Positions 7,085 through 61,078 of a DNA stretch of 64,000 bases are shown here, piece after piece (within the stretch, counting starts at the first letter, position 1; each line of letters starts with the position of its first letter). Location of the stretch: the IMG/VR virus record IMGVR_UViG_3300033463_000034. One strand, 5' to 3'. A model generated the notes under the pieces. It did no database searches, was not told the origin of the DNA, and saw nothing but the letters and a program-made list of their open reading frames with translations. The position numbers were made by a program, and so were the translations under genes. Origin of the DNA: a virus (Duplodnaviria > Heunggongvirae > Uroviricota > Caudoviricetes).

Positions 7085-7133
7085 GCGGGAGAGCCATTCT
7101 CCTGGATCTATGAGGTATTGACCGGCCGCCGCA
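7085..7133. other. GC-rich intergenic island containing CCGGCCGCCGC
   Basis: gcgggagagccattctcctggatctatgaggtattgaccggccgccgcac stands out in AT-rich DNA. It holds a short hairpin (ggaga/tctcc) and an EagI-like palindrome. Confidence 0.5.
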
Positions 7134-7134
7134 C

Positions 7135-7163
7135 TTGACAATAATAAAAAATTATTATATAAT
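7135..7163 (+). promoter_or_regulatory. consensus promoter TTGACA-17-TATAAT
   Basis: TTGACA at 7135-7140 and TATAAT at 7158-7163, both perfect. Confidence 0.65.
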
Positions 7164-7194
7164 ATATATAATAAATAAAGAAGGAGAGATACAT

Positions 7195-8310
7195 ATGAAT
7201 CCAGATAAATTAGAAGAATATAAAATGCAAGAATTAGTAGATAAATTAAATTATTATACAAAAAAATATGATGAAGGTAAACCTGAAATATCTGATTTTG
7301 AATGGGATTCTATGTATTTTCAACTACAAGATTGGGAAAATAGAACTGGAATATATCTTTCAGATAGTCCTACTCAAAATATTAATTATCAAGTAGTTAA
7401 TAAACTTAATAAAGTAGAACACAATCACCCTATGTTATCTCTTGATAAAACAAAAGATATAACAGTAGCAGATTCATTTTACAATAGTCATAAGTGTATT
7501 GTAATGGCTAAAATGGATGGACTAACTTGTTCACTTCGTTATTTAGATGGTAAACTTGTATCTGCGGAAACTCGCGGAAATGGAATAATAGGTGAAGATA
7601 TACTTCATAATGCTTTACAAGTAAAAAATATTCCTAATAGAATTGATTATTATGAAGAATTAATTGTAGATGGAGAAATTATTTGTACTTATAATGATTT
7701 TAAAGCATTTGAAAATGAATATAAAAATCCTAGAAATTTTGCTTCAGGAAGTATTAGATTATTAGATAGTCAAGAAAGCGCCACTAGAAATCTTACTTTT
7801 GTTGCATGGGATGTTGTAAAAGGATTAGATTTAGAAAATCTATCTGATAAATTAAAATGGTTAGGAGATTTAAATTTTACTGTTGTTCCAAAAGGAAATA
7901 ATTTTTATACATTTCCTGTTCAAATAGAACATATTCAAAATGAATGTAATGCTTTAGGCTATCCAATTGATGGAATTGTAATTAAATATGATAATTGTAA
8001 AGAGTATGAAATTGCAGGTAAAACTGATCATCATTTTAAAGGTGGATTAGCATATAAATTTTATGATGAAGAATATGAAACTACTCTTCTAGATATAGAA
8101 TGGAGTATGGGTAGAACTGGAGTTCTTTCTCCTATTGGAGTTTTTGAGCCTATTGAAATAGATGGTACTACAATTACTAGAGCAAGTTTATCTAATATAT
8201 CAATTATGCATCAAACATTAGGGGAAAAACCTTTTAAAGGACAGAAGATTTGGGTATCAAAACGAAATATGATAATTCCAAAAATTGAAAGAGCGGAAAA
8301 GGAGGAATAA
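7195..8310 (+). CDS. ligA: NAD-dependent DNA ligase, N-terminal half (Ia, adenylation and OB domains)
   Basis: RBS AAGGAGAG upstream. KxDG motif AKMDGLTC. The OB fold ends at IIPKIERAEKEE followed by a stop. Confidence 0.8.
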   Translation: MNPDKLEEYKMQELVDKLNYYTKKYDEGKPEISDFEWDSMYFQLQDWENRTGIYLSDSPTQNINYQVVNKLNKVEHNHPMLSLDKTKDITVADSFYNSHKCIVMAKMDGLTCSLRYLDGKLVSAETRGNGIIGEDILHNALQVKNIPNRIDYYEELIVDGEIICTYNDFKAFENEYKNPRNFASGSIRLLDSQESATRNLTFVAWDVVKGLDLENLSDKLKWLGDLNFTVVPKGNNFYTFPVQIEHIQNECNALGYPIDGIVIKYDNCKEYEIAGKTDHHFKGGLAYKFYDEEYETTLLDIEWSMGRTGVLSPIGVFEPIEIDGTTITRASLSNISIMHQTLGEKPFKGQKIWVSKRNMIIPKIERAEKEE

Positions 8311-8314
8311 TATT

Positions 8315-8782
8315 ATGAATTTAAATATAGAAAAAAGAGAATATGATGAAAATGGCATATTAAAAAATAAACAATGTAATATTTGTTTTAGAATGTTACC
8401 TATTGAACAATATTATTCTAACAAAGCTCAATATGATGGACATAGTAACACATGTAAAGAATGTGAAAATGCTTCTTTATCTGTTAGATTAAAAAATTAC
8501 AAAAGAAATGCTAAAAATAGAAATCTTAATTTTAATTTAACAAAAGAAGAATTTGATAAAATAACTTCCCAACCATGTTATTATTGTGGAGATTTGGGTG
8601 CAATATCTCCTTCTGGATTTAGATATAATGGAATAGATAGAAAAGATTCATCGCAAGGATATAACTTAGATAATATAGTTCCTTGTTGCAAGATTTGTAA
8701 TTTAATGAAATTAGATATTCCAGAAAAAGATTTTTTATATCATATTCAAAAAATATATGAATTTCAGTTATGGGGGGATTAA
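8315..8782 (+). CDS. HNH homing-type endonuclease inserted between the ligase halves
   Basis: RBS AAGGAGG 10 nt upstream. HNH signature CYYCGD...NGIDRKDSSQGYNLDNIVPCCKICN. Confidence 0.75.
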   Translation: MNLNIEKREYDENGILKNKQCNICFRMLPIEQYYSNKAQYDGHSNTCKECENASLSVRLKNYKRNAKNRNLNFNLTKEEFDKITSQPCYYCGDLGAISPSGFRYNGIDRKDSSQGYNLDNIVPCCKICNLMKLDIPEKDFLYHIQKIYEFQLWGD

Positions 8783-8783
8783 A

Positions 8784-9584
8784 ATGAAACAATATTTTGA
8801 AATTCCTGAAATCTGTCCAATATGTGGCGGCAATACTGAAATTAGAAAAGATAATGATAGTGAGATGTTGTATTGTATAAATCCTCACTGCGAAGGAAAA
8901 TTAATAAATCACCTAGACCATTTTTGTGGTAAAAATGGGTTAGATATAAAGGGGCTCTCAACGGCAACTCTCGAGAAACTTATAGACTGGGGTTGGGTTT
9001 CTAATTATATTGATATATATAAATTAGAAAACTACTCAAACGAATGGAAAAACAAAGCTGGTTTTGGAGAAAAGTCAGTAGAGAGGATCTTGAGCGCCCT
9101 TGAACTAAGTAAAAATACTACATTAAATAAAGTTATTGCGGCCGCAGGTATACCTTTAATAGGTCCTGGAGTAGCAAAAATGTTAAGTGAGATTTATCAT
9201 ACTTGGATAGAGTTTCGTAATGAAAAAGATTTTGAATATATAGATGGAATCGGTCCAGAAATGAATAATTCATTATTAAATTTTAATTATACTGAAATTG
9301 AACAAGTTATTCCTTATTTAAATATAGAAAATGATAAAATAGAAAAGAAAAATAAATTAGAAAATTTAACTTTTTGTATTACTGGTAAAGTACATACAGT
9401 AAAAAATAGAGATGAATTAAAAGCAATAATAGAAAATAATGGTGGAAAAGTTGTTGGTTCAATGTCAAGCAAAGTTAATTATTTAATTAATAATGATAAT
9501 ACTTCAACTAGTGCAAAAAATATTGCCGCAAAACAAGCAGGAATTCCAATTATTACAGAGGAAGAATTGCAATTAATGATTTAA
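8784..9584 (+). CDS. ligA: NAD-dependent DNA ligase, C-terminal half (Zn finger, HhH and BRCT)
   Basis: CPICGG...C..C Zn finger at the N-terminus, HhH region GIPLIGPGVAK, BRCT-like end. Own weak RBS GGGGGGA. Confidence 0.75.
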   Translation: MKQYFEIPEICPICGGNTEIRKDNDSEMLYCINPHCEGKLINHLDHFCGKNGLDIKGLSTATLEKLIDWGWVSNYIDIYKLENYSNEWKNKAGFGEKSVERILSALELSKNTTLNKVIAAAGIPLIGPGVAKMLSEIYHTWIEFRNEKDFEYIDGIGPEMNNSLLNFNYTEIEQVIPYLNIENDKIEKKNKLENLTFCITGKVHTVKNRDELKAIIENNGGKVVGSMSSKVNYLINNDNTSTSAKNIAAKQAGIPIITEEELQLMI

Positions 9585-9588
9585 TATT

Positions 9589-9617
9589 TTGATACCTTAA
9601 AAATTTTTATATATAAT
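9589..9617 (+). promoter_or_regulatory. promoter TTGATA-17-TATAAT
   Basis: Hexamers at 9589-9594 and 9612-9617. Confidence 0.5.
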
Positions 9618-9623
9618 ATAGAT

Positions 9624-9821
9624 ATGAAAGATAAAAAAAAGAAGGTTAAAAAAATAGCTCAACAAATCGTATCATTAGAAAATAAATGTCATCAAACTAA
9701 TAATATAGATGAAAGAAATAAATATATGATACAAATTCAAAAATTAATAGAAAATCTTTCATTAACAGAGCTATTACAAATTGATGAATATATAGTTGAA
9801 AATAGTCTTTTGACAAAATAA
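9624..9821 (+). CDS. small hypothetical protein
   Basis: 65 aa basic protein directly downstream of the promoter. No obvious RBS. Confidence 0.35.
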   Translation: MKDKKKKVKKIAQQIVSLENKCHQTNNIDERNKYMIQIQKLIENLSLTELLQIDEYIVENSLLTK

Positions 9822-9889
9822 AAATTTTTAATTATAATATTTATGTAAAAAATAATAAAATAGGTTTAAAGAGAAGGAGAAGAAAAATT

Positions 9890-10159
9890 ATGTTAAAACC
9901 AAATAGTATAACAGTTTACAATTATGTAAAAGAAAATCAAGCAAATAATATTACAGCTGCAGATATCGCTGAAGGAACTGGATTACCAGTAAGAACAATC
10001 AATGGTATCGTTACATCAGCATTCCAAAGAAAAGGTTTAATGGAAAGAATCGAAAAAGAAGTTGAATTAGAAGATGGTTCACACAAAAAAGTAAAATTCA
10101 TTAAATTAACTGCTGAAGGTGAAGCTTTCGATCCAGAAGCAACTGAAGACGCTGAATAA
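9890..10159 (+). CDS. small winged-helix-like DNA-binding protein with acidic tail
   Basis: RBS AGGAGAAG upstream. HTH-like ITAADIAEGTGLPVRTINGIV. Codon usage differs from neighbours (atc, ttc, ggt, cgt). Followed by a terminator. Confidence 0.5.
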   Translation: MLKPNSITVYNYVKENQANNITAADIAEGTGLPVRTINGIVTSAFQRKGLMERIEKEVELEDGSHKKVKFIKLTAEGEAFDPEATEDAE

Positions 10160-10178
10160 TTTTAATTATATAATAAAG

Positions 10179-10212
10179 AAAGCTAAATATTTATTTAGCT
10201 TTTTTATTTTAG
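10179..10212 (+). terminator. intrinsic terminator
   Basis: Stem aaagctaaata/tatttagcttt followed by a T-run. Confidence 0.6.
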
Positions 10213-10218
10213 AAAGGA

Positions 10219-11157
10219 TTGATTAATATAAAAGATTTTATTACAATATTTTTCTTTATTACAACAATAATATTATTTATTATATTATTATGTAAAAAAT
10301 ATAAAATTAATGAAATTAATAAAAATATTGAATTAGAAAATGAAAAATTATTAAAAAATAAAGATAATATTATAAATGAAATAAAAATTTTAAATATAAC
10401 AAAAGAAGAAAAAAATAAAGATTTACAAGAGATAGAAAAAATTACAAATAATATGAATGCGGCCGCTCATAAAGCATTTTCTGAATACTGTGATTCTTTA
10501 GATTCAGAATATAAAATTACTGAACAAGAACATGATGCAGCAATTGATGGATTAAGAACTGCATATGATAATCTTCAAGATATATTAATGATGAAAATTA
10601 AAAATACTCAAAAAGAATTAGATAAAATTTCTGCAACCCGTGCTGCCGCATTAGAAACTCAATTAAAAGAACAAGAAATAAAAAATAAACAATCTTTCTA
10701 TTGTCCGCAAATTCCTGAAGATGAATTAAAAGATGTTAAAGTTTTACATGAAATAGAATATAAATTAAATAATCCAAGAATATTAAGAATGCTTATATGA
10801 CAAACATATTATCAAAAACCTATGAATCAAGTTTGTGCAAATGTATTAGGAGATGCATCCGCAGAAAAATGCGGTATATATAAAATAACAAATCAAAAAA
10901 ACGATTTATTATATATAGGTCAAGCTGTTGATATTGCTACTCGTTGAAAAAATCATGCTAAAGCAGGTTTAGGAATAGATACTCCTGCAAATAATAAATT
11001 ATATAAAGCAATTATAGAAGATGGGCTTGAAAATTTTTCTTTTGAATTATTAGAAGAATGTAATAGAGATCAACTTAATGAAAAAGAAAAATTTTATATA
11101 AAATTATATCAATCTGATCAATTTGGATATAATTCTAATTCAGGTATAAATAAGTAA
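10219..11157 (+). CDS. membrane-anchored coiled-coil protein with C-terminal GIY-YIG nuclease domain (TTG start, 2 in-frame TGA)
   Basis: N-terminal TM FITIFFFITTIILFIILL and a long K/E coiled coil. C-terminal GIYKITNQKNDLLYIGQAVDIATRW(TGA)KNH...E..FYIKLY. Confidence 0.5.
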
Positions 11158-11178
11158 TTTGATAATTACTTATTTTTT
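11150..11178 (+). terminator. intrinsic terminator
   Basis: Stem aagtaatt/aattactt with loop tgat, followed by a T-run. Confidence 0.5.
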
Positions 11179-11222
11179 AAGTATAATAATTATATAAATA
11201 AAATAATAAAAAATAAATAAAT

Positions 11223-11251
11223 TTGACAATTATGAATTTTTTTATTATAAT
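11223..11251 (+). promoter_or_regulatory. consensus promoter TTGACA-17-TATAAT
   Basis: Perfect hexamers 17 nt apart. Confidence 0.65.
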
Positions 11252-11328
11252 ATTTATAGAAATAATGAAATCATAAGATAAATTAAATGAAATGAAGTTA
11301 TTTTAAAAGAAATAGGAGGAAAAATTAA

Positions 11329-12273
11329 ATGAGAAAACCACAAAATACAGAAAAAATTATTGGAAGAATTTATCAACATGATTTAGCTATAAAACAAGTT
11401 CAAAATAAAGATTCAGAGAACTTTGGAAAAGATTTTATAGCTGGAAATATTGAAGTAGCAACTGATGAAGAATGTTTAAATGTTATTAAAGTACATTTTA
11501 CATATGTTACACCAACAAATAAAACTGGAGCAGAAAATAAAACTTATACAGTTTTAAAGAAAATTATTGATGAAAATAAAACTATCACTTCAGTAGGAAA
11601 AGATAGTGCTATGAAAGTAAGAATTGATACTGCAATAGCATTAAATGATTTTTATAATAATAATGATGAATTAGTATCAGCAAAAACTAATGAAGGTGGA
11701 TTTGTTACTATTATAAATGATTTAGGAGAAGAAAAAGAAAGAAATATCTTCTCAGTAGATATGGTTATCACTGGAGTTACTCATGTAGATAAAGATGATG
11801 AAAAGAAAACTGAAGAATATGCATCTGTAAGAGGAGCAATATTTAATTTTAGAAATGATTTATTACCTGTTGAATTTAAAGTAAAAAGTTCTGATGGTAT
11901 TAAATATTTTGAAAATTTAGGTGCATCTAACTCAGAACCTATTTATACAAAAGTATGGGGAAAAATTATATCTGCAACTAGTACAACAACTCAAGAGGTT
12001 GAAAGTGCATTTGGAGAACCTGCAGTAAGAACTTATAGAAATACAAATAAAGAATGGGTTATTACAGGAACAGCAAAAGTTGCTTATGATTTTGGTGATG
12101 AAAATATATTAACAGCTCAAGAATTAACAAAAGCAATGCAAGATAGAGAAGTTTATTTAGCAGATGTTAAAAAAAGAGCTGAAGAATATAAAACAACAAA
12201 AGCTAGCTCTACTCCTGCAGCATCAAGTACAACTACAACAATAACAGGAAAAAAAGCCGATTTTAATTTTTAA
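11329..12273 (+). CDS. putative ssDNA-binding protein (DUF2815-like phage SSB)
   Basis: RBS AGGAGGAA upstream. Sits immediately upstream of a Sak4-like ATPase. Low-complexity tail ends ...ADFNF (aromatic C-terminus). Function is inferred from context. Confidence 0.4.
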   Translation: MRKPQNTEKIIGRIYQHDLAIKQVQNKDSENFGKDFIAGNIEVATDEECLNVIKVHFTYVTPTNKTGAENKTYTVLKKIIDENKTITSVGKDSAMKVRIDTAIALNDFYNNNDELVSAKTNEGGFVTIINDLGEEKERNIFSVDMVITGVTHVDKDDEKKTEEYASVRGAIFNFRNDLLPVEFKVKSSDGIKYFENLGASNSEPIYTKVWGKIISATSTTTQEVESAFGEPAVRTYRNTNKEWVITGTAKVAYDFGDENILTAQELTKAMQDREVYLADVKKRAEEYKTTKASSTPAASSTTTTITGKKADFNF

Positions 12274-12285
12274 TATCGGCTTCTT
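12253..12285 (+). terminator. intrinsic terminator
   Basis: Stem aagccgatttt/atcggctt followed by cttatttt. Confidence 0.45.
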
Positions 12286-12307
12286 ATTTTAAGAAAGGAG
12301 AAAGAAA

Positions 12308-13333
12308 ATGGCTATAGATTTAATGAATTTAGCACCTCATAAAGTTAGTAGAGATTTACGCGGATATAGTGTATTCTTTTATGGAGAACCTAAAAGCGGT
12401 AAAACAACAACTGCCGCACATTTTCCTGAAGCTTTACTTTTAGCTTTTGAAAAGGGATATAATGCTATTCCTGGAATTATGGCTCAACCAATAAATTCAT
12501 GGAGTGAATTTAAACAAACTTTAAGAGAATTAAAAAAACAAGAAGTAAAAGATAAATTCTCAACTATTATTATTGATACAGTTGATATTGCTTATGATTA
12601 TTGTACTAAATATATTTGTGATAATGCAAAAAGATCTGATGGAGGATTTGGAGTAGATTCAATTAGCGATATTGGATATGGAAAAGGTTATGGTATGGTT
12701 AGTCAAGAATTTGATGATAGTCTTCGTAGTATTGTTCAAATGGATTATGGTCTAGTTCTTATTAGTCATGCAACTGATAAAACTTTCAAAAATGAGAGTG
12801 GAGAAGAATATAATCAAATAGTTCCAACATTAGATAAAAGAGGAACTAATATTGTATCTCGTATGGCAGATATTATTGGTTATTCAAGAGTAGTAACTAC
12901 TGATGAAGGAGATAAAACAATGTTATTTATGAGAGGTACAAATAGATATATGGCTGGAAGTAGATTTAAATATACTCCAGATTATATTGAATTCTCATAT
13001 AAAAATCTTACAGATGCTATTGCAAATGCAATAGATATGCAATCTAAAGAAGAAGGAGAACAATATTTTACTGAAGAAAGAAGTAATTTATATGCTCCTA
13101 AAGATAATGAATTGGATTTTGATAAACTAATGGTTGAATTTCAAAATTGTATTAATCGCATGATAGCAAAAGCTGGAGATAAATTTGAATCAGAATATAC
13201 TCCAAGAATTACTCAAATAACTGAAAAATATTTAGGACGCGGTAATAAAGTAAGTCAATGTTCAAGAGAACAAGTTGAAGCATTATCATTAATAGTTGAA
13301 GATTTAAAAGATTTAGAAAAAATTAATATTTAA
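12308..13333 (+). CDS. Sak4-like RecA-family ATPase (AAA_24 recombination protein)
   Basis: Walker A GEPKSGKTT and Walker B IIIDTVD. Overall AAA_24/Sak4-like layout. Confidence 0.65.
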   Translation: MAIDLMNLAPHKVSRDLRGYSVFFYGEPKSGKTTTAAHFPEALLLAFEKGYNAIPGIMAQPINSWSEFKQTLRELKKQEVKDKFSTIIIDTVDIAYDYCTKYICDNAKRSDGGFGVDSISDIGYGKGYGMVSQEFDDSLRSIVQMDYGLVLISHATDKTFKNESGEEYNQIVPTLDKRGTNIVSRMADIIGYSRVVTTDEGDKTMLFMRGTNRYMAGSRFKYTPDYIEFSYKNLTDAIANAIDMQSKEEGEQYFTEERSNLYAPKDNELDFDKLMVEFQNCINRMIAKAGDKFESEYTPRITQITEKYLGRGNKVSQCSREQVEALSLIVEDLKDLEKINI

Positions 13334-13342
13334 TTTTATTTA

Positions 13343-13376
13343 TAAACGCCCTTTAGGAGCGTTTTTTGATTTTTTA
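13343..13376 (+). terminator. intrinsic terminator
   Basis: Stem aacgccc/agcgtt followed by ttttgatttttt. Confidence 0.45.
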
Positions 13377-13394
13377 AGAAATAAAAGTTATAAT
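13366..13394 (+). promoter_or_regulatory. promoter TTGATT-17-TATAAT
   Basis: Hexamers at 13366-13371 and 13389-13394. Confidence 0.5.
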
Positions 13395-13425
13395 ATAAAA
13401 AAGAGAAATATAAGGAGGTGCGGAA

Positions 13426-13929: not shown

Positions 13930-13930
13930 T

Positions 13931-15469: not shown

Positions 15470-15486
15470 GAAGGAGGATTGCGGCA

Positions 15487-53723: not shown

Positions 53724-53725
53724 AA

Positions 53726-54970: not shown

Positions 54971-54983
54971 ATTTGATTACCTC

Positions 54984-56393
54984 CTAAGCAAAAATAAATT
55001 CTATACATTTATCTGTTGAATTATATTGCATTGTTGCAGCAGTTCCACCAACTTGCACTGATTTAGTAGTAAGAACCCCATCAGTAGCATATATTTCATT
55101 ATCTGAATAAGTTTGTGGATTAGCAGCTTGACTAGTTGCACCAATTAAATAAATTTTACTTGATGTATCTGTTGAGCCAGCAGTATTTTTAGTATTTGTA
55201 TAACAAGCAGTTGGAATAGTTCCACTTAATTTAGTTGCATCTAAAGTAGAAGCAGCAGTAAGTGGAGTAATTGTTTCACTACCTAAAGTAATAGTGCCAT
55301 TTTCTAATTTAGCATCTGTAATTCCATAACCACTTATTGTAGTTGGATTAGTTCCCCCAGTAACATGTCCTGTTTCATTAACTGTTACAGAAGTATAAGT
55401 TCCAGCTGTAACTCCTGAATTAGCGTGTGATATTGTTCTAGTACCACTTGTTGTAATTGCACTTGTACTATTTACTGCAATAGGTGAAGTAGCTTTTATA
55501 ACAATACTTGTTACAGTTCCACTTGGTTCATCTCCAGAAGGAATTAATTCCCAAGTATTTGCATTAGAAGTTTTTGTTAAACATATAAAAGTATCTCCAA
55601 TCTTTGCATTTTGAGATGCATATACTCCAGCAGTAATAACTTTATAAGTATCACCAACATCTGCAGAACCATCAACAGGTAAATCAGTAATAGTTCCATC
55701 TGTTCCTAAACTACCTTTAAATACCATTGGTTCTGGTAAATTATCAATAGCAGTTTTAACAAATGAAGTTGTTGCTATTTGATCTGTATTAGTACCAGCA
55801 TCCGCAGTTGGTGCACTTGGAATACCATTTACAATACTAATAGCTTCTTTATAATTATTACTTACTGTATTACCTAAAGATAATCTAGCATTTGCATCAT
55901 CTGTAGTTGTAAGAGCTGTAACGCCAGTATCTGCAGTAGTAGAAGCGTAATTTAATTTAAAACCATCTGAAGATCCAGTTACCTCTATAATATTTGTTGA
56001 AGCAACAGTCCCACTACCAGCTAAAGTATTTTTTAATACACTAGCTTCAGTAGCATAAGGTACTGTAATTGATTGAGCGCTTCCAGAACTAGGTGTTAAT
56101 TTAATTTGTTTATTTGTTGTATCTGCCTCTAATAAATAAGTAGTATTATTATCAGGCATTGTAATTTCATGAGATGTTCCACTTGGATCTGTAAAAATTA
56201 ATTTATGAGTATCAGTTCCATCTTGAATTAAATTATAAGAACTAATTTCAATACGATTTGAATTAGTTTGATCTAAATATAATCTTTTTGTATCTGTTAC
56301 AAAAATAAGTTGCCCTGCAGTAATAGGTAAAGAAGAAAGATTAGTATTAGTTGTTTGATAAAATTTTACTAATGTTCTGTTTGTTTCAGCCAT
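54984..56393 (-). CDS. tail fibre protein
   Basis: RBS GGAGGAAAT upstream. N-terminal anchor motif GQLIFVTDTKRLYLD, then Thr/Ser-rich shaft. Confidence 0.55.
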   Translation of the reverse strand: MAETNRTLVKFYQTTNTNLSSLPITAGQLIFVTDTKRLYLDQTNSNRIEISSYNLIQDGTDTHKLIFTDPSGTSHEITMPDNNTTYLLEADTTNKQIKLTPSSGSAQSITVPYATEASVLKNTLAGSGTVASTNIIEVTGSSDGFKLNYASTTADTGVTALTTTDDANARLSLGNTVSNNYKEAISIVNGIPSAPTADAGTNTDQIATTSFVKTAIDNLPEPMVFKGSLGTDGTITDLPVDGSADVGDTYKVITAGVYASQNAKIGDTFICLTKTSNANTWELIPSGDEPSGTVTSIVIKATSPIAVNSTSAITTSGTRTISHANSGVTAGTYTSVTVNETGHVTGGTNPTTISGYGITDAKLENGTITLGSETITPLTAASTLDATKLSGTIPTACYTNTKNTAGSTDTSSKIYLIGATSQAANPQTYSDNEIYATDGVLTTKSVQVGGTAATMQYNSTDKCIEFIFA

Positions 56394-56409
56394 TTTATTT
56401 CCTCCTTCA

Positions 56410-56450
56410 TATTATTGCGGAAGATCTCGATTTAATATTCTTTAAATCGG
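56410..56450. other. GC-containing imperfect stem-loop between fibre genes
   Basis: gatctcgatttaa / ttaaatcgggatc with one mismatch, flanked by gcggaag and agcgcc. Confidence 0.3.
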
Positions 56451-56471
56451 GATCCAGCGCCTTTATTTACA

Positions 56472-57824
56472 TTAAGCTGAATAAGTTTCCCAAGCTAGGA
56501 TACTTTCAGCGTAAGCTTTTGCTCCATAGATTGTATTTGCAGTAGCAGTGTCTGAAGCAGTTCCTATTGCTGTACTTAATGCAGCAGCAGCACTACCACT
56601 TGCATCATAAGCACTACTTGCAGTATAAGCAGCTGATCCTAAACCATGGACACTAACTTCTGCAGTTGTTCCACCAGTATTAACACTAATTGTACCATTA
56701 TTAGATCCTTCAGCTACGCTTCTAACTGCGTTATCAGCTAAAGTTCCTTGAGCAGCAGTTGCATAATTTGAAGCTAAACTATCTGCATATTTTTTAGCAC
56801 CATAAATAGTATTAGCAGTTGCAGCATCACTACTTGAACCAATAACTTCTGATTTAACTGTTGCAGCAGCTCCGCTAGCATCATAAGCTGATGAAGCAGT
56901 ATAAGCAGCACTACCTAAACCATAAACTGCAACATCTGTACCATCAACTGCAATTGTACCATTAGTAGCACCAGTTGTAATATCTGCAGCTTGTAATGCG
57001 CTATCAGCAGCATTAATTGAGCTTTGTAATGAACTAGATAATTTTGCTTTTGTTACATTAGCATCTAAAATTTTTGCAGTTGTAACAGCATCATCAGCTA
57101 ATTCTGTAGCAGTAACTGATCCAGCTACGATTGAACCACTAATTACATTAGCATTACTAATAGCTAATTGAATTTGACTAGCATTTTGTTCTGCAGTATA
57201 AATATCTACTAAATCTTTAGCAGCAATATATAATACATCACTTGAGCTATTAGCGATTTGTAATTTAATATATTTACCAGCATCTGCAGCAGTAGCAGTT
57301 CCACCTTGACCTTTGATTTTTTCAGTTACATCTGTTTGTCCATCATATAATTTTCCATCTTCAGAGTTATAAGTGATATCTACAACAGATCCACTTTCAA
57401 CTACCATATCTTTTGGAATATCAATATTTACATTTAATCCTGTAGCAGATTGAACTACATTATATCTTTTTGAATATGGATCCCCAGTTTGTCCTGAAGT
57501 TTCAGTAATTGCTACTGTATAATTAGTTTGACTAGGTACATTAACGTATAATCCTTTTTCTCCTGCTCCAGTTTGTAAACTTAAACTATTTCCTGATTTT
57601 TCAGAAATTTGAACTTTAATTTTTTTATTATCTGAAACTACAATTGAATCATCTTTACCTTCAACAGCAGTTAAGAAACTTGATAAATCTTGATCTGTTA
57701 AATGTCTTTCTCCTAGATATAATTCATTAGTATCAGTTAATAAATAAAAATAATCTGCATTAACTGTTCCTGCAGTTTTTAATGCAGCATATTCACTAGC
57801 TAAAATTTTAATAAATTTAATCAT
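56472..57824 (-). CDS. tail fibre protein with tandem repeats (YGLGSAAYTASSAYDASG and TATANTIYGAK[KA]YA, each x2)
   Basis: RBS GAAAGGAAG upstream. N-terminal YFYLLTDTNELYLG motif. Confidence 0.55.
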   Translation of the reverse strand: MIKFIKILASEYAALKTAGTVNADYFYLLTDTNELYLGERHLTDQDLSSFLTAVEGKDDSIVVSDNKKIKVQISEKSGNSLSLQTGAGEKGLYVNVPSQTNYTVAITETSGQTGDPYSKRYNVVQSATGLNVNIDIPKDMVVESGSVVDITYNSEDGKLYDGQTDVTEKIKGQGGTATAADAGKYIKLQIANSSSDVLYIAAKDLVDIYTAEQNASQIQLAISNANVISGSIVAGSVTATELADDAVTTAKILDANVTKAKLSSSLQSSINAADSALQAADITTGATNGTIAVDGTDVAVYGLGSAAYTASSAYDASGAAATVKSEVIGSSSDAATANTIYGAKKYADSLASNYATAAQGTLADNAVRSVAEGSNNGTISVNTGGTTAEVSVHGLGSAAYTASSAYDASGSAAAALSTAIGTASDTATANTIYGAKAYAESILAWETYSA

Positions 57825-57848
57825 ATTTTTTCTTCCTTTCTTTTATTA

Positions 57849-58286
57849 TTAAATTGATTGATTAGAATAATTTTCCCAATCATTTCCGCCTAATCGATAA
57901 TAACTATCCATTTCTCCATTTCAACGATACATTTTATCATTTTTTACATAGATAACATCTTCAATTCCTATATAAGGTAAATCACCATCTATAAAAATTA
58001 TATTAGGCTCTTCTTGTCCTGTCATTTGAATCCATTCACCGAAATAACTCCATAAAGTATTAGTACTCATTACATAGTAATATCCTTCAAAAGGAGATTC
58101 AATAGCTAATCTAGCTTCTTCATCGGCTACATTTAAAATTGATTGATAAGGTGTTCTCTCATCATTAACATCTAAATATATTGCTCTAGTATCTGAACAG
58201 AAAATTAATTGTCCTGCTTTAACTTCTATATATGGAAGTTTATTAGATGTAGTAGCAATAAAATGCATACTTGGTTTAACAGCCAT
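57849..58286 (-). CDS. short fibre/anchor protein sharing the N-terminal motif (GQLIFCSDTRAIYLD)
   Basis: Track ORF 57921 continues across one TGA. Ends in three consecutive TAA codons at 57843-57851. Confidence 0.45.
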
Positions 58287-58302
58287 ATTTTATTCCTCCT
58301 TT

Positions 58303-58653
58303 TTAAAAAATATCTAATACTAAAGAACCATCAATACTTTCGATTACATCTTGAATGATTTCTTCTTTATCCTCGCCAGTATAGTAATCTACTCCTTTTT
58401 GAGGAATGTACATAGGAACTTCTCCTGAATCAATAGTATCACCATTTGACATAGTACATATTAAATGATTATCTTCATTAATATAAACGTCAATTATAGA
58501 AATACCATCTTCTGGAGCTGGGAAATCAATCTCTAAAATTTCTCCGCTTTTTGTTTCAATATAAAGTGTAGTCTCTTCAACCCACATTCTTTCAATTCCT
58601 GAAGCGGCTGCACCTGCTATTTTTTTACAAAGAGCATATGTAACTATATCCAT
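58303..58653 (-). CDS. hypothetical protein
   Basis: 116 aa acidic protein. Confidence 0.4.
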   Translation of the reverse strand: MDIVTYALCKKIAGAAASGIERMWVEETTLYIETKSGEILEIDFPAPEDGISIIDVYINEDNHLICTMSNGDTIDSGEVPMYIPQKGVDYYTGEDKEEIIQDVIESIDGSLVLDIF

Positions 58654-58683
58654 ACTATCTTCCTTTCTTCCTCAAAAATTTTA

Positions 58684-58869
58684 TTGAGCAATTCATTCTT
58701 TTTGAGAATTTAGAATATAAACAGCACCAGTTGCAATGATGTAAGCTACACTCCCTGCAACAATATTAGGGAATTTTGTAAGAACTTGATTTAATTCACT
58801 TGCGGAATCTAGGAACACTTCCATATAATTATAATCAGTTCTTCCACCTTGTTTAACTATTTGCATATT
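58684..58869 (-). CDS. small protein with C-terminal hydrophobic segment (about 61 aa; bounds approximate)
   Basis: RBS GGAGGAGTG upstream. MQIVKQGGRTDYNYMEVF... Confidence 0.3.
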
Positions 58870-58927
58870 ACACTCCTCCTTCTGAAACTATTTAAAAATT
58901 GCCTTTTTTCTATTTTCTTAATTTGAC

Positions 58928-58962
58928 CATAAAAAAAACGCGGAAATAACTCCGCAATCTTT
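58928..58962. terminator. bidirectional terminator
   Basis: Stem gcgga/tccgc (with flanking pairs), followed by T-runs on both strands. Confidence 0.45.
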
Positions 58963-58970
58963 TTTATTTA

Positions 58971-59405
58971 TTATTTTTCTTCATTTTCAGGAACTTTTAC
59001 TTCCCAAGTAATTTCTTCATTATTAGCTTTTACAGTTAATAATTGACCAATTCCTTCTAAAGCCTTTTTTCCTTGTGCTATTATAGAATTGATTACAATA
59101 CCTAATACTGCAACTGTACTTAAAGTATTCAAAGTATCACTTGCAATAAGTTGAATTCCATATACATTAGTAATCATATCATTAACAAAAGGTAACATTG
59201 TGAAAGCTATAGATAATAAAGCTGAACAAATATAGAATACTATAGCTTTTAAAATTCCTTTAAAGAAAACTTTTCAAGAAAAACTTTCTCCCTTTTTATT
59301 AATATTAAATATTACACCACAAACAGTATTAATTGTTACTAAAATTCCTAAAACAACTCCTAACCAACCTACTATTTGTAATGTAGACATTATAGCTTCA
59401 TACAT
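58971..59405 (-). CDS. holin-like membrane protein (3-4 TM segments), about 144 aa; 1 in-frame TGA
   Basis: RBS GGAGGTAAAG upstream. Hydrophobic segments LQIVGWLGVVLGILV, AIVFYICSALLSIAF and AVLGIVINSII. Sits directly downstream of the lysin. Confidence 0.5.
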
Positions 59406-59418
59406 AAAACTTTACCTC

Positions 59419-60840
59419 CTATAATTTTTTTAAGGCATCAGCTTGATAAAATCCAGTAGTACCAGTATTATTACCAACTTGATATGGATAAGGTTTACCA
59501 TTCCAAATTTTTAATATTTGTCTTGTCCAGCCAATACCATAAGCAGTATTACAATCTCCATAACAAGAACCATTACCAGTGCCTATAATTTGAACTTTAT
59601 CTCCAACTTTTAATTCTTCTGGTTTTGGTGGTACAGGTGTTGGAGTTGGTTCTGGATCTACATAAGGACTAATAGAATCTTCAGCCATCCAACCTAAATC
59701 TCCAGTAGTATTATATGGATAAGGATGTCCCCATGCAATTCTAGTAATATTAGTTACTTTATTATGCGCAGTTTTACCAGGATATTTTCCATCTGCGGTT
59801 CCATATAATTGACCATTAATAATAACCTTATCCCCTATATTATATTTAGGAGTAGGTTGTGGTTGTGCAGGATAAATAGTTGTCCATTCATCACTTGAAG
59901 CTATCCATTGTTCATCTGCAATTCTATACCATATATAACCTGATGCTTCCGCAGTTTCATAATAATTATAATATCCAATATGAGCAAATCCTAAAACTTC
60001 TTTATCAGTTCCAGCACCTTTTCTAACTCTTAAATTAGATATTTTTACTTCTATTTGATCTTTATAAATATCTCTATCTACATTTGGAGTAATTGGTGAT
60101 TCTCCACCATCAACCCATTTTTGTACGTCATCTGGTAAATAAATAAAACATCTAAATGTATAAGCAGATCCTTGTCCCCATCTACCATTTTTATTAGATC
60201 TTGTTGTATTTCTAAATGTATAAGAATTATATCCTGATTCAGAAACATAAATCGAACCATCTGCATTAATTCTTTCTACAACAGCAACATGTCCAGCCCC
60301 ATCTTTACTAGCTAAAGAGCCTTTTTGCCATACTATAATAGCACCAACTTTTGGAGTTGATCCAGTTTTTAACCCAGCTGGGATAGCTCTTTCAGGGAAG
60401 TTTTCTGCATTACAATTTAATGTTTTATAAGTACATCCAGTTGTATTTCTTGCTTCGTTAATAATTTCATTAAAACGACCTGAAGCATATCCAACACAGT
60501 TTGCTAATACATTAGCTTCTGGATCTTTTGGTTTACCTAAAATACAAGTATTCCATCCACCTGTTCCAGCCTTTATAAAGTTTTTATTATTTTTTGGTTT
60601 AGTAGTTCTCATTGAAAACCCACTAGCTCCAATACCTTCTTGCTCTTCTTCATTAACATTTTCTATTGAAATAATATCTTCCATATCATCTTGTTCTTCT
60701 TGAGGATCTGTATTAAATAAATATTGTACATCCTCATCATCAATATCATCTCTTAAGAAGGCTTTAGCTACCATATGTTGTACTTCAATAGGAGCCATTT
60801 CAACTCTAGCTATTCTTTCTTCTGAAGTTAATTGTGCCAT
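59419..60840 (-). CDS. peptidoglycan hydrolase: CHAP amidase/peptidase domain plus two SH3-like wall-binding domains, with an acidic N-terminal extension
   Basis: CHAP Cys/His region GGWNTCILG...NCVGYASG...AGHVAVVE. SH3_5-like GDKVIINGQLYGTADGK and GDKVQIIGTGNG. Confidence 0.65.
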   Translation of the reverse strand: MAQLTSEERIARVEMAPIEVQHMVAKAFLRDDIDDEDVQYLFNTDPQEEQDDMEDIISIENVNEEEQEGIGASGFSMRTTKPKNNKNFIKAGTGGWNTCILGKPKDPEANVLANCVGYASGRFNEIINEARNTTGCTYKTLNCNAENFPERAIPAGLKTGSTPKVGAIIVWQKGSLASKDGAGHVAVVERINADGSIYVSESGYNSYTFRNTTRSNKNGRWGQGSAYTFRCFIYLPDDVQKWVDGGESPITPNVDRDIYKDQIEVKISNLRVRKGAGTDKEVLGFAHIGYYNYYETAEASGYIWYRIADEQWIASSDEWTTIYPAQPQPTPKYNIGDKVIINGQLYGTADGKYPGKTAHNKVTNITRIAWGHPYPYNTTGDLGWMAEDSISPYVDPEPTPTPVPPKPEELKVGDKVQIIGTGNGSCYGDCNTAYGIGWTRQILKIWNGKPYPYQVGNNTGTTGFYQADALKKL

Positions 60841-60841
60841 A

Positions 60842-61078
60842 TTAATTTTCCTCCTTTTCTATTATATCTGCGGAAGGAACCGCTTGTTCTTCTTGAACCT
60901 CTTCTTTAGATTCTTGAGCGGCCGCCGCATTTTGTTCTCTTTCTAATTGAAGTTGCTGATTATAAAGACTAGTAACTTCATTCATTATATCTTTCATTAC
61001 ATAATATATTACATCAATACTTAAACCCGATTGATTTAATACTTTTGTAATATTTACTCTTAAATCATTTAAAATCAT
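60842..61078 (-). CDS. hypothetical acidic protein (contains the GCGGCCGCCGC Ala4 stretch)
   Basis: 78 aa. Poly-Ala encoded as gcg gcg gcc gct. Confidence 0.4.
   Translation of the reverse strand: MILNDLRVNITKVLNQSGLSIDVIYYVMKDIMNEVTSLYNQQLQLEREQNAAAAQESKEEVQEEQAVPSADIIEKEEN

What the first reader, a model, noticed from the sequence alone, without database searches (positions are those of the whole stretch)
7085..60935. Family of NotI-like GC-rich motifs TGCGGC(GGC)CGC in a roughly 27% GC genome
The 10-mer CGGCCGCCGC occurs three times (7122 +, 42050 minus strand, 60918 +), and the 11-mer CCGGCCGCCGC twice. Four more sites share TGCGGCCGC (9140, 10460, 15735, 35556). GCGGCGG also occurs at 24810 and 34647. 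The chance expectation for any 8-mer of this composition in 64 kb is far below 0.1. Two copies are intergenic, directly upstream of operon starts (7135 promoter; the baseplate gene at 42028). Inside genes the motif is produced by encoding Ala-Ala-Ala with GCG/GCC codons although GCT/GCA dominate elsewhere, which suggests selection at the DNA level. Candidate roles are a binding site for a phage or host protein (parS-like, packaging, regulator) or a modification/restriction-related target.
Basis: seen in the sequence. Interest (0 to 1): 0.65.

Follow-up and report, generated by a model that had tools for sequence, protein, structure and literature searches.

The report
Selected CCGC word behind NotI-like motifs
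The rare GC-rich NotI-like sequences in this AT-rich, TGA-recoded phage are real, but they are pile-ups of a shorter word, CCGC/GCGG, which this phage lineage keeps at silent codon positions across its genome for a reason not yet known.

Summary
The sequences exist, with coordinates off by 1-5 nt, and they are not chance. There are 5 NotI sites against 0.23 expected in 200 synonymous-codon shuffles. However, the 8-11-mers are not a self-contained site family.

- **Shorter word.** They are the largest overlaps of CCGC/GCGG (often TGCGG or GCSGC). This is the most over-represented tetranucleotide against the synonymous shuffles: 166 observed against 71.5±5.6. The excess holds in both orientations, several frames, genes and spacers.
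- **Lineage.** Relatives show the excess at 3-6x the composition expectation. SPbeta, c-st, phage K and unrelated phages that share the lysin do not.
- **Conservation.** G/C at four-fold sites inside the word is kept in relatives at 63%, against 19% for other G/C (p=3e-9). New G/C appears three times more often where it completes the word. DNA-level selection or drive is therefore real, but the agent is unknown.
- **Intergenic 11-mers.** Both are GC clamps of a repeated 45-70-nt stem-loop element. One is a window-specific insertion between a terminator and a promoter. The other lies just 5' of a late gene's ribosome-binding site in four of five genomes.
- **Residual signal.** NotI stays about 5x above a CCGC-only null.

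No methylase motif, tRNA or Rfam family was found.

The parts
1..64000 (.). Genome-wide excess of the word CCGC/GCGG: 166 copies, one per about 385 bp. Preferred forms are TGCGG (89) and GCSGC (59).
   Evidence: Against synonymous shuffles: 166 observed, 71.5±5.6 expected. Markov ratio 2.37 and zero-order ratio 4.0. Both orientations are enriched 1.8-2.9x in both arms. Intergenic DNA has 19 copies in 4163 nt at 21.8% GC (count), against about 1.2 expected by my zero-order estimate from that GC content.
7084..7133 (+). Intergenic element A: TGCGG-N33-CCGGCCGCCGC-A. It lies between the terminator of the GyrA-like gene and the ligase promoter, and it contains the 11-mer at 7122-7132.
   Evidence: Sequence. 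The element is absent from the same spacer in L001, L002, L003, L004, L006 and L024. Its minus strand aligns with L004 5074-5134, sharing TGCGGCGGCCGGTCAAT. On the minus strand, the outer stem TGCGG/CCGCA is paired in the minimum-free-energy fold. The plus-strand fold is no better than shuffles.
7135..7163 (+). Sigma-70-type promoter TTGACA-17-TATAAT for the split NAD-ligase gene, directly 3' of element A.
   Evidence: 12/12 consensus match. The same promoter architecture occurs in relatives without element A.
9137..9146 (+). TGCGGCCGCA in the C-terminal part of the NAD-ligase gene; codons GCG GCC GCA (Ala-Ala-Ala).
   Evidence: Relatives keep GCG GCA but not NotI: GCG GCA GCA, GCG GCA GCC GGT or GCG GCA GCG.
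10458..10466 (+). TGCGGCCGC at the 5' end of a conserved gene with a GIY-YIG domain; codons AAT GCG GCC GCT (Asn-Ala-Ala-Ala).
   Evidence: NotI is conserved in L002, L003, L004 and L024. L006 has GCC GCC GCC, and L001 has lost it.
15733..15742 (+). TGCGGCCGCA in the primase gene (Zn-finger region); codons TGC GGC CGC (Cys-Gly-Arg), not an Ala run.
   Evidence: The rare codon pair GGC CGC is kept in L001, L002, L003, L004 and L006 (the near-identical contig L026 has the same site). L003, L004 and L006 have ACC GGC GGC CGC.
16842..16849 (+). GCCGCCGC in the RecJ-like gene (Ala-Ala-Ala).
   Evidence: GCC GCA, or GCG GCA in L002, is kept in all five relatives covered.
24808..24851 (+). Intergenic stem-loop GCGGCGGATCC...GGTCCTCCGC. 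It lies between the Pol III alpha stop codon and the AAGGAGG ribosome-binding site of gene 24865. Same architecture as element B.
   Evidence: The outer GCGG/CCGC stem is paired; dG -17.2 kcal/mol. Sequence.
34648..34654 (+). GCGGCGG in a family-2 glycosyltransferase gene; codons AGC GGC GGA (Ser-Gly-Gly).
   Evidence: The homologous GGC GGC GG block is present in L168 and L170.
35551..35560 (+). TGCGGCCGCA in a glycosyltransferase gene; codons GCG GCC GCA (Ala-Ala-Ala).
   Evidence: The site is window-specific: relatives encode A-K or A-N here.
42050..42110 (-). Intergenic element B: ATGCGG-N44-CCGGCCGCCGC, directly 5' of GAGATAAAAGGAG and the ATG at 42028 of a 778-aa late gene.
   Evidence: Sequence. 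L167, L168 and L170 carry a stem-loop at the same place, TGCGG-N29-33-CCGCA followed by GAGATAAAAGGAG; L166 has none. The outer stem is invariant, and the inner stem has 2 compensatory pairs. The fold is not better than shuffles for the window copy.
60918..60928 (-). GCGGCGGCCGC in a 78-aa late ORF; codons GCG GCG GCC GCT (Ala x4).
   Evidence: It is identical in two other contigs of the same phage, L149 and L150. No diverged relatives were found for this region.
43852..43878 (.). Bidirectional terminator-type hairpin closed by TGCGG/CCGCA.
44900..44925 (-). Intrinsic terminator TGCGGAAGC...GCTTCCGCA followed by a T run.
   Evidence: dG -18.1 kcal/mol. Sequence.
58940..58955 (.). Bidirectional terminator hairpin GCGGA...TCCGC with T runs on both sides.

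Best explanation
**Shown.** The NotI-like 8-12-mers are not an independent element.

- They are places where two or three copies of a short duplex-DNA word, CCGC/GCGG, overlap. Its preferred forms are TGCGG and GCSGC.
- This word is held at high density by selection or a directional drive acting on DNA throughout this phage lineage. The lineage is a TGA-recoded rumen/gut phage of about 105-145 kb with an SPbeta-like replication module, probably of the 'Agate' type.
- In genes, the pile-ups arise where the protein allows it: Ala-Ala-Ala as GCG GCC GCN, or x-Gly-Arg as NGC GGC CGC.
- In spacers, the same word forms the G-C clamp (TGCGG...CCGCA) of terminators and of a repeated 45-70-nt stem-loop element.
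- The window holds three copies of that element. Element A is a recent insertion upstream of a promoter. The elements at 24808 and B lie directly 5' of ribosome-binding sites.

**Inferred.**

- Because the excess is strand-symmetric, frame-independent, Poisson-spaced and limited to this lineage, the word is most likely read by a lineage-specific DNA-processing protein that must meet a site every few hundred base pairs.
- My first choice is a Chi-like signal that tames a host AddAB/RecBCD-type exonuclease on a DNA whose ends can lie anywhere (about 0.25).
- Second is a start word for the phage's own DnaG-type primase (about 0.15).
- Third is the target of a protective DNA modification (about 0.1).
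- The stem-loop elements most likely act at the RNA level, in processing or 5' stabilisation, or as REP-like extragenic palindromes.
For: **Enrichment**
- CCGC/GCGG has the highest z among 4-mers against synonymous shuffles: 166 observed, 71.5±5.6 expected, z about 17. By Markov expectation the ratio is 2.37.
- Other all-G/C 4-mers are not enriched.
- Both orientations are enriched in both arms.
- The word occurs in four frame/orientation combinations.
- Intergenic DNA has 19 copies against about 1.2 expected from its GC content (my zero-order estimate).

**Lineage specificity**
- The word ranks first or second among 4-mers in L001, L002, L004, L006, L007, L012 and L023 and is 3.9-4.7x in L166-L170.
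- Control ratios are 0.32 in c-st, 0.55 in phage K, 0.70 in SPbeta, and about 1 in unrelated phages or MAG loci sharing the lysin.

**Conservation**
- G/C at four-fold third positions inside the word is retained at 62-76%, against 24% for other G/C. Pooled Fisher p is 3.7e-18.
- Per site, retention is 0.63 against 0.19, p = 3e-9. The difference also holds within Ala and within Gly codons.
- The result replicates in the late arm and in relatives at 67-71% identity.
- It is absent in the weakly enriched subclade L015-L018.

**Gains and swaps**
- Where one genome has A/T, the other has G/C at 22.9% of sites where G/C completes the word, against 7.0% elsewhere.
- GCC/GCG swaps keep GCSGC.

**Spacing**
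- Inter-site spacing has a coefficient of variation near 1. There is no position bias within genes.

**Hairpin family**.
Against: - NotI (5 sites) and GCSGC (59) remain above a null in which only CCGC is favoured to the observed level: 0.9 expected for NotI (maximum 3 in 120 simulations) and 45-47 for GCSGC. Something beyond the 4-mer is therefore also preferred.
- The 12-mer GCGGCNGCCGRT recurs in elements and in coding DNA of the same genome. This looks more like a longer specific site.
- No agent was identified. No methylase motif was found, only about half of the genome was seen, and the host is unknown.
- For the Chi-like reading, there is no orientation bias, and AGCGG, the B. subtilis Chi, is the least enriched flank variant.
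- For the primase reading, I know of no precedent for genome-wide enrichment of a primase word.
- The window copies of elements A and B do not fold better than shuffled sequence.
Confidence: 0.6

Rival explanations
1. The long motifs are true binding sites of a sequence-specific, probably dimeric, protein. The full site would be TGCGG.CCGCA or GCGGCNGCCGGT, and the many isolated CCGC/TGCGG copies would be half-sites or low-affinity sites of the same protein. Candidates are a phage regulator, a nucleoid-type protein, or strong sites for the phage's type II topoisomerase.
For: - NotI is 5 against 0.9 under a CCGC-only null.
- Head-to-head GCGG>CCGC at distance 4 is the favoured arrangement.
- The perfect 10-bp palindrome TGCGGCCGCA occurs three times.
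- GCGGCNGCCGRT with up to one mismatch gives 4 matches against 0.02 expected.
- The L004 genome has five copies, two of them in the same genes (ligase, primase) that carry NotI in the window.
- Element A, L004_5074 and L006_4882 lie next to strong promoters.
Against: - Sites 9138 and 35552 are window-specific, and 60918 could not be compared.
- Element A is missing from six relatives.
- In relatives, the 3' arm of element B lacks the 11-mer.
- The exact sequence at conserved positions differs between genomes.
- Most of the signal (166 words) lies outside long motifs, and those words are equally conserved: CCGC-only sites are retained at 62%.
Confidence: 0.2
2. There is no function. A neighbour-dependent mutation bias, or a very-short-patch-type repair or gene-conversion drive linked to a CCGC-specific cytosine methylase, creates and preserves CCGC.
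For: - The excess is strand-symmetric and frame-independent.
- Both better retention and more frequent gain of the word occur, as a drive would give.
- CpG is otherwise strongly depleted: ACGT 0.35x, TCGA 0.55x, CCGG 0.47x.
Against: - The predicted deamination products CTGC/GCAG (0.96x) and CCAC/GTGG (1.05x) are not depleted.
- No C5- or N6-methylase motif occurs in the window or in the loci fetched from relatives with strong enrichment.
- Other all-G/C words are not enriched.
- The effect is 2.3-4x, which from memory is larger than the CCWGG excess attributed to Vsr in E. coli.
- It is absent from a sister subclade and from phages or MAG loci of a probably similar host.
Confidence: 0.12
3. 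The excess of GCSGC is a by-product of avoiding GCWGC (TseI/ApeKI/BbvI-type restriction sites) at Ala-Ala and similar codon pairs.
For: - GCWGC is 71 against 96.1±3.1 expected, 0.74x, z = -8.
- Ala-Ala uses GCS as its first codon in 40 of 106 cases, although GCS makes up under 10% of Ala codons.
- Clostridium phage c-st and Staphylococcus phage K have zero GCWGC in 50 kb.
- Palindromic 4-mers are clearly avoided here.
Against: - 71 GCWGC sites remain.
- CCGC words outside GCSGC (GCGGA, TGCGG, NGC GGN) are as enriched and nearly as conserved, 62% against 76%.
- Intergenic enrichment and the hairpin clamps are not explained.
Confidence: 0.05
4. The pattern is translational codon-pair bias, with tRNA or ribosome preference for NNC/NNG before G-starting codons.
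For: The effect is strongest at specific dipeptides: AA 38%, CG 26%, GG 22% and AE 20% of opportunities used.
Against: - The reverse complement is equally enriched on the coding strand.
- Intergenic DNA has 19 copies, about 16 times my zero-order estimate of 1.2.
- Several frames are involved.
- Early (standard-code) and late (recoded) genes behave alike.
Confidence: 0.03

Closest known systems
Chi sites and other over-represented 'architecture' words (E. coli GCTGGTGG; B. subtilis AGCGG, cited in PMC4824097; S. aureus GAAGCGG, from memory)
   Same: A short G-rich word containing GCGG, far above compositional expectation, dispersed every few hundred base pairs and kept by selection. From memory (Bobay et al. 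2013), phages lacking nuclease inhibitors are known to accumulate host Chi.
   Different: - Here both orientations are enriched alike.
- The core is only 4 nt.
- AGCGG is the least enriched flank variant.
- The host and its Chi are unknown.
- Pile-ups into palindromes are not a Chi feature.
REP/BIME elements of enterobacteria
   Same: Repeated GC-rich imperfect palindromes of 35-70 nt lying between genes, in both orientations, several copies per genome, with presence/absence differences between close relatives. REP elements stabilise mRNA and bind gyrase (from memory). This phage encodes its own GyrB/GyrA-like topoisomerase.
   Different: - These elements are in a phage genome, with only a few copies.
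- Their consensus is different: TGCGGCSGCCGGTCAAT...TCCCGCA.
- No RAYT-type transposase was seen.
- Folding support is uneven.
GC clusters of yeast mitochondrial DNA and Rickettsia palindromic elements
   Same: Short GC-rich, palindrome-ended insertions scattered in a very AT-rich genome and variable between strains.
   Different: Mobility is not shown here beyond one insertion/deletion difference (element A) and multi-copy similarity (L004_350 against L168_B). No in-frame insertions into genes were seen.
RNase III processing hairpins of phage T7 and 5' stabiliser stem-loops of Bacillus phage and host mRNAs
   Same: Related stem-loops sit between genes, immediately 5' of a ribosome-binding site (element B, the 24808 element, and the homologues in L167, L168 and L170).
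   Different: No cleavage or stability data exist. Element A lies between a terminator and a promoter, where little transcript is expected.
Restriction/modification targets: NotI GCGGCCGC, EagI CGGCCG, AciI CCGC, TauI GCSGC, Fnu4HI GCNGC; the SPbeta/phi3T multispecific C5-methylase (GGCC + GCNGC, from memory; the mtbP gene is in SPbeta)
   Same: The sequences are identical to those recognition sites. The replication module is collinear with that of SPbeta.
   Different: - The sites are enriched, not avoided.
- No methylase motif was found in the window or relatives.
- SPbeta itself has no CCGC excess, 0.70x.
Preferred Dnd phosphorothioation site of Streptomyces lividans, c-cGGCCgccg (from memory only)
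   Same: It is nearly the same string as the intergenic 11-mer CCGGCCGCCGC.
   Different: That site is from a high-GC organism, where such strings are common. No dnd or ssp genes were seen here. This is a lead only and was not tested.

Membership tests
Restriction/modification target site | A cognate methyltransferase or endonuclease gene in the phage (or host) | tested here: not met
   A regex scan of six-frame code-4 ORFs for C5 motifs I/IV and the N6 DPPY motif covered the window, L001-L026 and L166-L170. The only hits were in L016 and L017, which belong to the weakly enriched subclade. Only about half of the genome was seen, and the host is unknown.
Restriction/modification target site | The site is under-represented in genomes exposed to the enzyme | tested here: not met
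   CCGC is 2.3x, GCSGC 2.7x and NotI about 22x above synonymous-shuffle expectation. True avoidance is seen for ACGT, TCGA, CCGG, GTAC and GATC.
Restriction/modification target site | Base modification at the site in native DNA | not testable with these tools
   This needs PacBio or ONT reads of native virion DNA.
Chi-like nuclease-attenuating word | A short word strongly over-represented relative to composition and dispersed along the genome | tested here: met
   166 observed against 71.5 expected. Spacing coefficient of variation is about 1.
Chi-like nuclease-attenuating word | Orientation bias relative to replication direction or DNA ends | tested here: not met
   Left arm: GCGG(+) 2.17x and CCGC(+) 2.88x. 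Right arm: 2.87x and 1.81x. Both orientations are enriched everywhere.
Chi-like nuclease-attenuating word | The same word is recognised by the host AddAB/RecBCD and enriched in the host genome | not testable with these tools
   The host is unknown. Lysin homologues lie on Bacilli or 'Mollicutes' MAG contigs, and those loci show no excess. They may themselves be phage DNA.
Repeated extragenic palindrome (REP-like or GC-cluster-like), for the intergenic 11-mers | Several copies per genome sharing a consensus, located between genes | tested here: met
   The window has element A, the 24808 element and element B. The L004/L168 genome has L004_350, L004_5074 and L168_B. L006 has copies at 1989 and 4882. 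Alignment A1 gives the consensus TGCGGCnGCCGGTCnATCA...TTCnGCA.
Repeated extragenic palindrome (REP-like or GC-cluster-like), for the intergenic 11-mers | Stem-loop supported by energy or covariation | tested here: inconclusive
   - The outer stem UGCGG/CCGCA is invariant in four orthologous copies, with only 2 compensatory pairs inside.
- L006_1989 has z = -6.5.
- Window elements A and B have z = +0.7 and -0.4.
Repeated extragenic palindrome (REP-like or GC-cluster-like), for the intergenic 11-mers | Presence/absence polymorphism between close relatives | tested here: met
   Element A is absent from the same spacer in six relatives. The B-type element is absent from L166.
Intrinsic terminator, for elements A and B | G+C-rich stem followed by a T/U run | tested here: not met
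   No terminator-like site was found at 6500-7700 or 41500-42700. Elements A and B are followed by a -35 box and a ribosome-binding site respectively. True terminators with the same clamp exist at 43852, 44900 and 58940.
parS / pac-type clustered binding sites | Clustered copies near partition or packaging genes | tested here: not met
   The seven sites are spread over 54 kb in unrelated genes and spacers. No ParB or terminase gene lies next to them in the window.
Known RNA families / tRNA | Match to a curated covariance model | tested here: not met
   Rfam found nothing in the whole window at gathering thresholds. Only chance-level hits (E = 0.7-1) appeared around elements A and B. ARAGORN found no tRNA.

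The most novel reading that the evidence does not exclude
CCGC/TGCGG, with its NotI-like pile-ups, is the recognition word of an undescribed, lineage-specific DNA transaction in TGA-recoded 'Agate'-type phages. Candidates are a self-marking or protective modification, a Chi-like nuclease brake, or a primase start word. The transaction would be important enough to override strong A+T pressure at silent sites genome-wide, and it would be paired with a REP-like family of GC-clamped stem-loops that carry the same word.
Probability: 0.35. Interest if true: 0.8.

Novelty: new variant of a known kind. Interest (0 to 1): 0.62.

Why it matters
Selected short DNA words such as Chi, uptake sequences and KOPS are classic in bacteria. 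In phages they are rarely documented, apart from borrowed host Chi.

In this case a 4-mer is held at about four times its compositional expectation in a 27% G+C genome. It is conserved at nearly saturated silent sites, and it is gained preferentially where a single base completes it. This gives a clean, testable handle on an unknown protein-DNA interaction in a large uncultivated phage group that is already notable for stop-codon recoding.

There are two practical points. The word count separates this lineage from other AT-rich phages, which could serve as a taxonomic or host-linked signature. The work also shows that striking long GC-rich motifs in AT-rich genomes can be overlaps of a shorter selected word.

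If the agent is a nuclease brake or a modification target, it bears on phage defence and counter-defence in gut and rumen Firmicutes.

Tried and rejected
- **14-mer scan.** Scanning IMG/VR for the 14-mer GACCGGCCGCCGCA returned only high-GC phages by chance. The three low-GC hits were unrelated.
- **Late-region relatives.**
  - The 778-aa late protein and the 78-aa ORF found no relatives.
  - The CHAP lysin found only unrelated phages.
  - The lysin look-up returned only short contigs identical to the window.
  - Conservation of the site at 60918 therefore could not be tested.
- **VSP-type repair.** The predicted depletion of CTGC and CCAC is not seen.
- **GCWGC avoidance as sole cause.** The depletion is only 0.74x, and CCGC outside GCSGC behaves the same.
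- **mRNA hairpins in genes.** The excess of convergent GCGG...CCGC pairs within 40 nt comes mostly from NotI-type overlaps (distances 4 and 7), and intergenic stems closed by the pair are listed.
- **Even spacing.** This is expected if a minimum density were selected, but the coefficient of variation is about 1.
- **Position within genes.** The distribution is flat.
- **Shared replisome as cause.** SPbeta, with the collinear yorG-yorL module, has no excess.
- **tRNA, Rfam families and Pfam on neighbouring small proteins.** Nothing relevant was found.
- **Literature.** Searches for CCGC over-representation in phages and for a primase recognising GCGG found nothing pertinent. The Agate-phage paper does not mention the motif.
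- **Assembly or cloning artefact.** This is rejected because the sites recur in independent samples and at orthologous positions.

Full report
**Observation**

The window is 26.8% G+C. It reads as densely coding only under code 4, TGA = Trp. TGA codons are few in the plus-strand early arm (1-36.7 kb) and reach 23 per gene in the minus-strand late arm.

- Seven CGGCCG sites: 7123, 9139, 10460, 15735, 35553, 42054, 60919.
- Five NotI sites: 9138, 10459, 15734, 35552, 60918.
- The 11-mer CCGGCCGCCGC at 7122(+) and 42050-42060(-).
- GCGGCGG at 24808 and 34648, plus four more copies.

Four coding NotI sites are Ala runs written GCG GCC GCN. The one in the primase gene is TGC GGC CGC, Cys-Gly-Arg.

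In 200 shuffles that keep each protein and each gene's codon usage:
- NotI is expected 0.23 times and observed 5 times.
- CGGCCG is expected 1.4 times and observed 7 times.

**What the motif is made of**

A k-mer survey against the same shuffles shows that the primary signal is much shorter.
- CCGC/GCGG has the highest z among tetranucleotides in that test: 166 copies against 71.5±5.6, z about 17.
- Next come TGCGG/CCGCA (89 against 36), GCGGA (78 against 30) and GCSGC (59 against 22).
- A gene-call-independent Markov estimate gives 2.37x, and the zero-order ratio is 4.0.
- No other all-G/C tetranucleotide is enriched. The palindromes ACGT, TCGA, CCGG, GTAC and GATC are depleted, as expected from restriction avoidance.

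The word is enriched 1.8-2.9x in each orientation in each arm. It appears as GCG|G, nGC|GG, nCC|GC and nnC|CGC. It is about 16 times more frequent than expected in the 4.1 kb of spacers: 19 copies counted against about 1.2 from my zero-order estimate at 21.8% GC.

At the codon level:
- Half of all GCC codons are followed by another Ala codon.
- 74% of GCG codons are followed by G.
- A third of the rare CGC Arg codons follow an NGC codon.
- Of 106 Ala-Ala pairs, 40 are written GCS-GCN.

NotI = GCGG+CCGC, and CCGGCCGCCGC contains two CCGC. These long motifs are therefore overlaps of this word.

In a Metropolis null I favoured only CCGC until its count matched the observed 166.
- NotI rises to 0.9 expected, with a maximum of 3 in 120 runs.
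- GCSGC rises to 45-47.

The short word thus explains part of the long motifs but not all of them. About a five-fold excess of the palindromic pile-up remains.

**Relatives and controls**

A GyrA-like query brought in 26 related IMG/VR loci at 56-88% identity. Their contigs, where complete, are 105-145 kb, and many come from rumen samples. A RuvC query brought in the late region of the same genomes.

- CCGC ranks first or second among tetranucleotides in most relatives, at 3-5.8 times composition. It is weaker (1.6-2.3x) in the subclade L015-L018.
- It is depleted or neutral in other AT-rich Firmicute phages: c-st 0.32, phage K 0.55.
- It is neutral in SPbeta (0.70), whose yorG-yorL replication module is collinear with 12308-24808 of the window.
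- It is neutral in unrelated phages and in Bacilli or 'Mollicutes' MAG loci that share a 63-65% identical lysin.

The signature therefore belongs to this phage lineage. It does not follow from AT-richness, from the SPbeta-type replisome, or, as far as can be judged, from the host.

The genome matches the description of TGA-recoded 'Agate' phages: about 127 kb, from cattle, pig and tortoise gut, with recoding confined to late genes. The paper describing them does not mention the motif.

**Conservation**

I used codon alignments at four-fold sites where the amino acid is conserved. Silent divergence is near saturation, since A/T bases are retained at only 57-60%.

| Class of four-fold third base | Retention in six close relatives |
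|---|---|
| G/C inside GCSGC | 76% |
| G/C inside CCGC only | 62% |
| Other G/C | 24% |

- Source for the table. Pooled Fisher p = 3.7e-18.
- Counted per site, retention is 0.63 against 0.19, p = 3e-9. The difference holds within Ala codons (p = 0.01) and within Gly codons (p = 4e-4).
- It replicates in the late arm: 67% and 54% against 3% in L166.
- It persists at 67-71% protein identity: 50% against 16%, p = 3e-4.
- It vanishes in L015-L018: 0/16 against 1/51.
- GCC GCA pairs at 5898 and 10645 are identical in all eight close relatives. Where the pair at 4655 or 16845 changes, it changes to GCG GCA, which preserves GCSGC.
- Gains show the same force. Where one genome has A/T, the other has G/C at 22.9% of sites where G/C would complete the word, against 7.0% elsewhere. 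In the reverse direction the figures are 11.2% against 3.8%.

For the NotI sites themselves:
- 10459 is NotI in four relatives.
- GGC CGC at 15736 is kept in L001, L002, L003, L004 and L006.
- 9138 and 35552 are window-specific.
- 60918 could not be tested, because no diverged relatives were found.

**The two intergenic copies**

Element A (7084-7133) lies between the terminator of the GyrA-like gene and a perfect TTGACA-17-TATAAT promoter. The spacer of six relatives has the same terminator and promoter but lacks the roughly 50-nt element.

Element B (42050-42110, minus strand) is TGCGG-N-CCGC, followed at once by GAGATAAAAGGAG and the ATG at 42028.
- L167, L168 and L170 have a stem-loop TGCGG-N29-33-CCGCA at exactly this place. 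L166 has none.
- The outer stem is invariant, and the inside varies with two compensatory pairs.

A third stem-loop of the same design precedes the ribosome-binding site of gene 24865 (24808-24851).

Elements A and B align with copies at other places in relatives: L004_350, L004_5074, L006_1989, L006_4882 and L168_B.
- The shared consensus is TGCGGC(S)GCCGGTCAAT...TCCCGCA.
- Two copies from one genome resemble each other closely over about 45 nt.
- One copy is a near-perfect 63-nt palindrome with z = -6.5.

The same TGCGG/CCGCA clamp closes the bona fide terminators at 43852, 44900 and 58940. Elements A and B themselves have no T run and fold no better than shuffles. Rfam and ARAGORN find nothing.

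The intergenic 11-mers are therefore the GC clamp of a small family of repeated, variably present stem-loop elements. Their closest analogues are REP/BIME elements, mitochondrial GC clusters, and T7 RNase III or 5'-stabiliser hairpins.

One observation is not explained. The 12-mer GCGGCNGCCGRT occurs in the window twice exactly and twice with one mismatch, against 0.02 expected. In the L004 genome it occurs five times, including inside the ligase and primase genes at the positions that carry NotI in the window.

**Mechanism**

*Shown.* A duplex-level, strand-symmetric, frame-independent, lineage-specific force creates and keeps CCGC. It does so against strong A+T pressure, at a Poisson-like spacing of about 385 bp, with no preference for position within genes.

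*Rejected or weakened:*
- Translational codon-pair bias. The antisense and intergenic excess argue against it.
- VSP-type repair. CTGC and CCAC are not depleted.
- A methylase. No C5 or N6 motif was found in the window or in the loci fetched from relatives.
- GCWGC avoidance as sole cause. GCWGC is 0.74x, but CCGC outside GCSGC behaves alike.
- Relict GC. Gains are as biased as losses.

*Inferred.* The word is read by a protein that acts on either strand every few hundred base pairs.
- I rank a Chi-like brake on a host AddAB/RecBCD-type nuclease first. Firmicute Chi sequences end in GCGG (AGCGG in B. subtilis, PMC4824097), and phages are known to accumulate Chi. The lack of orientation bias fails a defining feature of Chi and would need ends that can lie anywhere.
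- Second is a start word for the phage's own primase.
- Third is a modification target.
- A dimeric protein that prefers the palindromic pile-up remains a rival (0.2), because NotI exceeds the CCGC-only null.

**Verdict**

I found no description of a selected CCGC word or of these stem-loop elements in phages. I class it as a new variant of a known kind, a selected over-represented DNA word plus REP-like elements. Interest is 0.62.

Noticed in passing
window 1-64000: The genome uses code 4 (TGA = Trp). Early plus-strand genes carry 0-2 in-frame TGA each, while late minus-strand genes carry up to 23. This fits the 'Agate' clade of TGA-recoded gut and rumen phages.
   Followed up: partly
window 7195-9584: The NAD-dependent DNA ligase is split. 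7195-8310 matches profile positions 4-383 and 8757-9584 matches positions 387-649, with an HNH-like ORF (8315-8782) between them. No group I intron model matched.
   Followed up: partly
window 12308-24808: The replication module is collinear with SPbeta yorG-yorL: an AAA_24 protein, the YorI helicase at 37% identity, a primase, a RecJ-like exonuclease and Pol III alpha. An extra RecD-like helicase lies at 18457-19659.
   Followed up: partly
window, whole: Palindromic 4-mers are depleted against synonymous shuffles: ACGT 0.35x, CCGG 0.47x, TCGA 0.55x, GTAC 0.66x, GATC 0.78x. CAGC/GCTG is 0.83x. This is typical restriction avoidance.
   Followed up: partly
L147 (Clostridium phage c-st 1-50000) and L148 (Staphylococcus phage K 20001-70000): Both control phages contain no GCWGC at all and only 0-2 GCSGC in 50 kb. 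This is near-total avoidance of GCNGC.
   Followed up: no
window 36700-36850: GC skew and gene orientation switch together at about 36.8 kb, where transcription converges and cumulative skew peaks. This is a likely replication terminus if replication is bidirectional.
   Followed up: no
window 32857-36145 and 42677-43783: Four or five glycosyltransferase-like genes (family 2 and family 4 types, plus a Stealth-like protein by eye) lie between the replication and structural modules. Whether the target is DNA, the virion or the cell surface is unknown.
   Followed up: no
window 59525, 60291, 62344, 62909 (minus strand) and 5071: The 8-mer GGCTGGAC occurs 5 times against 0.15-0.19 expected. By eye, several copies encode a repeated Gly-Trp-Thr peptide motif seen in the tail proteins, always with TGG rather than TGA.
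   Followed up: partly
L001 470-539, L004 1717-1786: By eye these are tRNA-like cloverleaf sequences with an anticodon loop CUUCCAA, read by eye; ARAGORN was not run on them. They lie upstream of the region homologous to the window start. The window itself has no tRNA.
   Followed up: no
L006 1989-2051: A near-perfect 63-nt palindrome with GCGGCGGC/GCCGCCGC arms (RNA fold -38 kcal/mol, z = -6.5). It is related to a second copy at L006 4882.
   Followed up: partly
L178, L179, L182 (genome contigs): Lysin homologues at 63-65% identity lie on contigs of 'Bacilli' and 'uncultured Mollicutes' MAGs from sheep colon and human gut. L182 (25% GC) gains much ORF length under code 4, so the host group may include TGA = Trp organisms.
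   Followed up: no
window 13419-13423 and 15480-15484: TGCGG sits between the GGAGG ribosome-binding site and the ATG of two adjacent replication genes (ggaggTGCGGaaATG and ggaggatTGCGGcaATG).
   Followed up: no
window 449-461: The longest all-G/C run in the window, the 13-mer CCGGGGCCCGCGC, lies inside gene 211-663. It is not of the NotI type.
   Followed up: no
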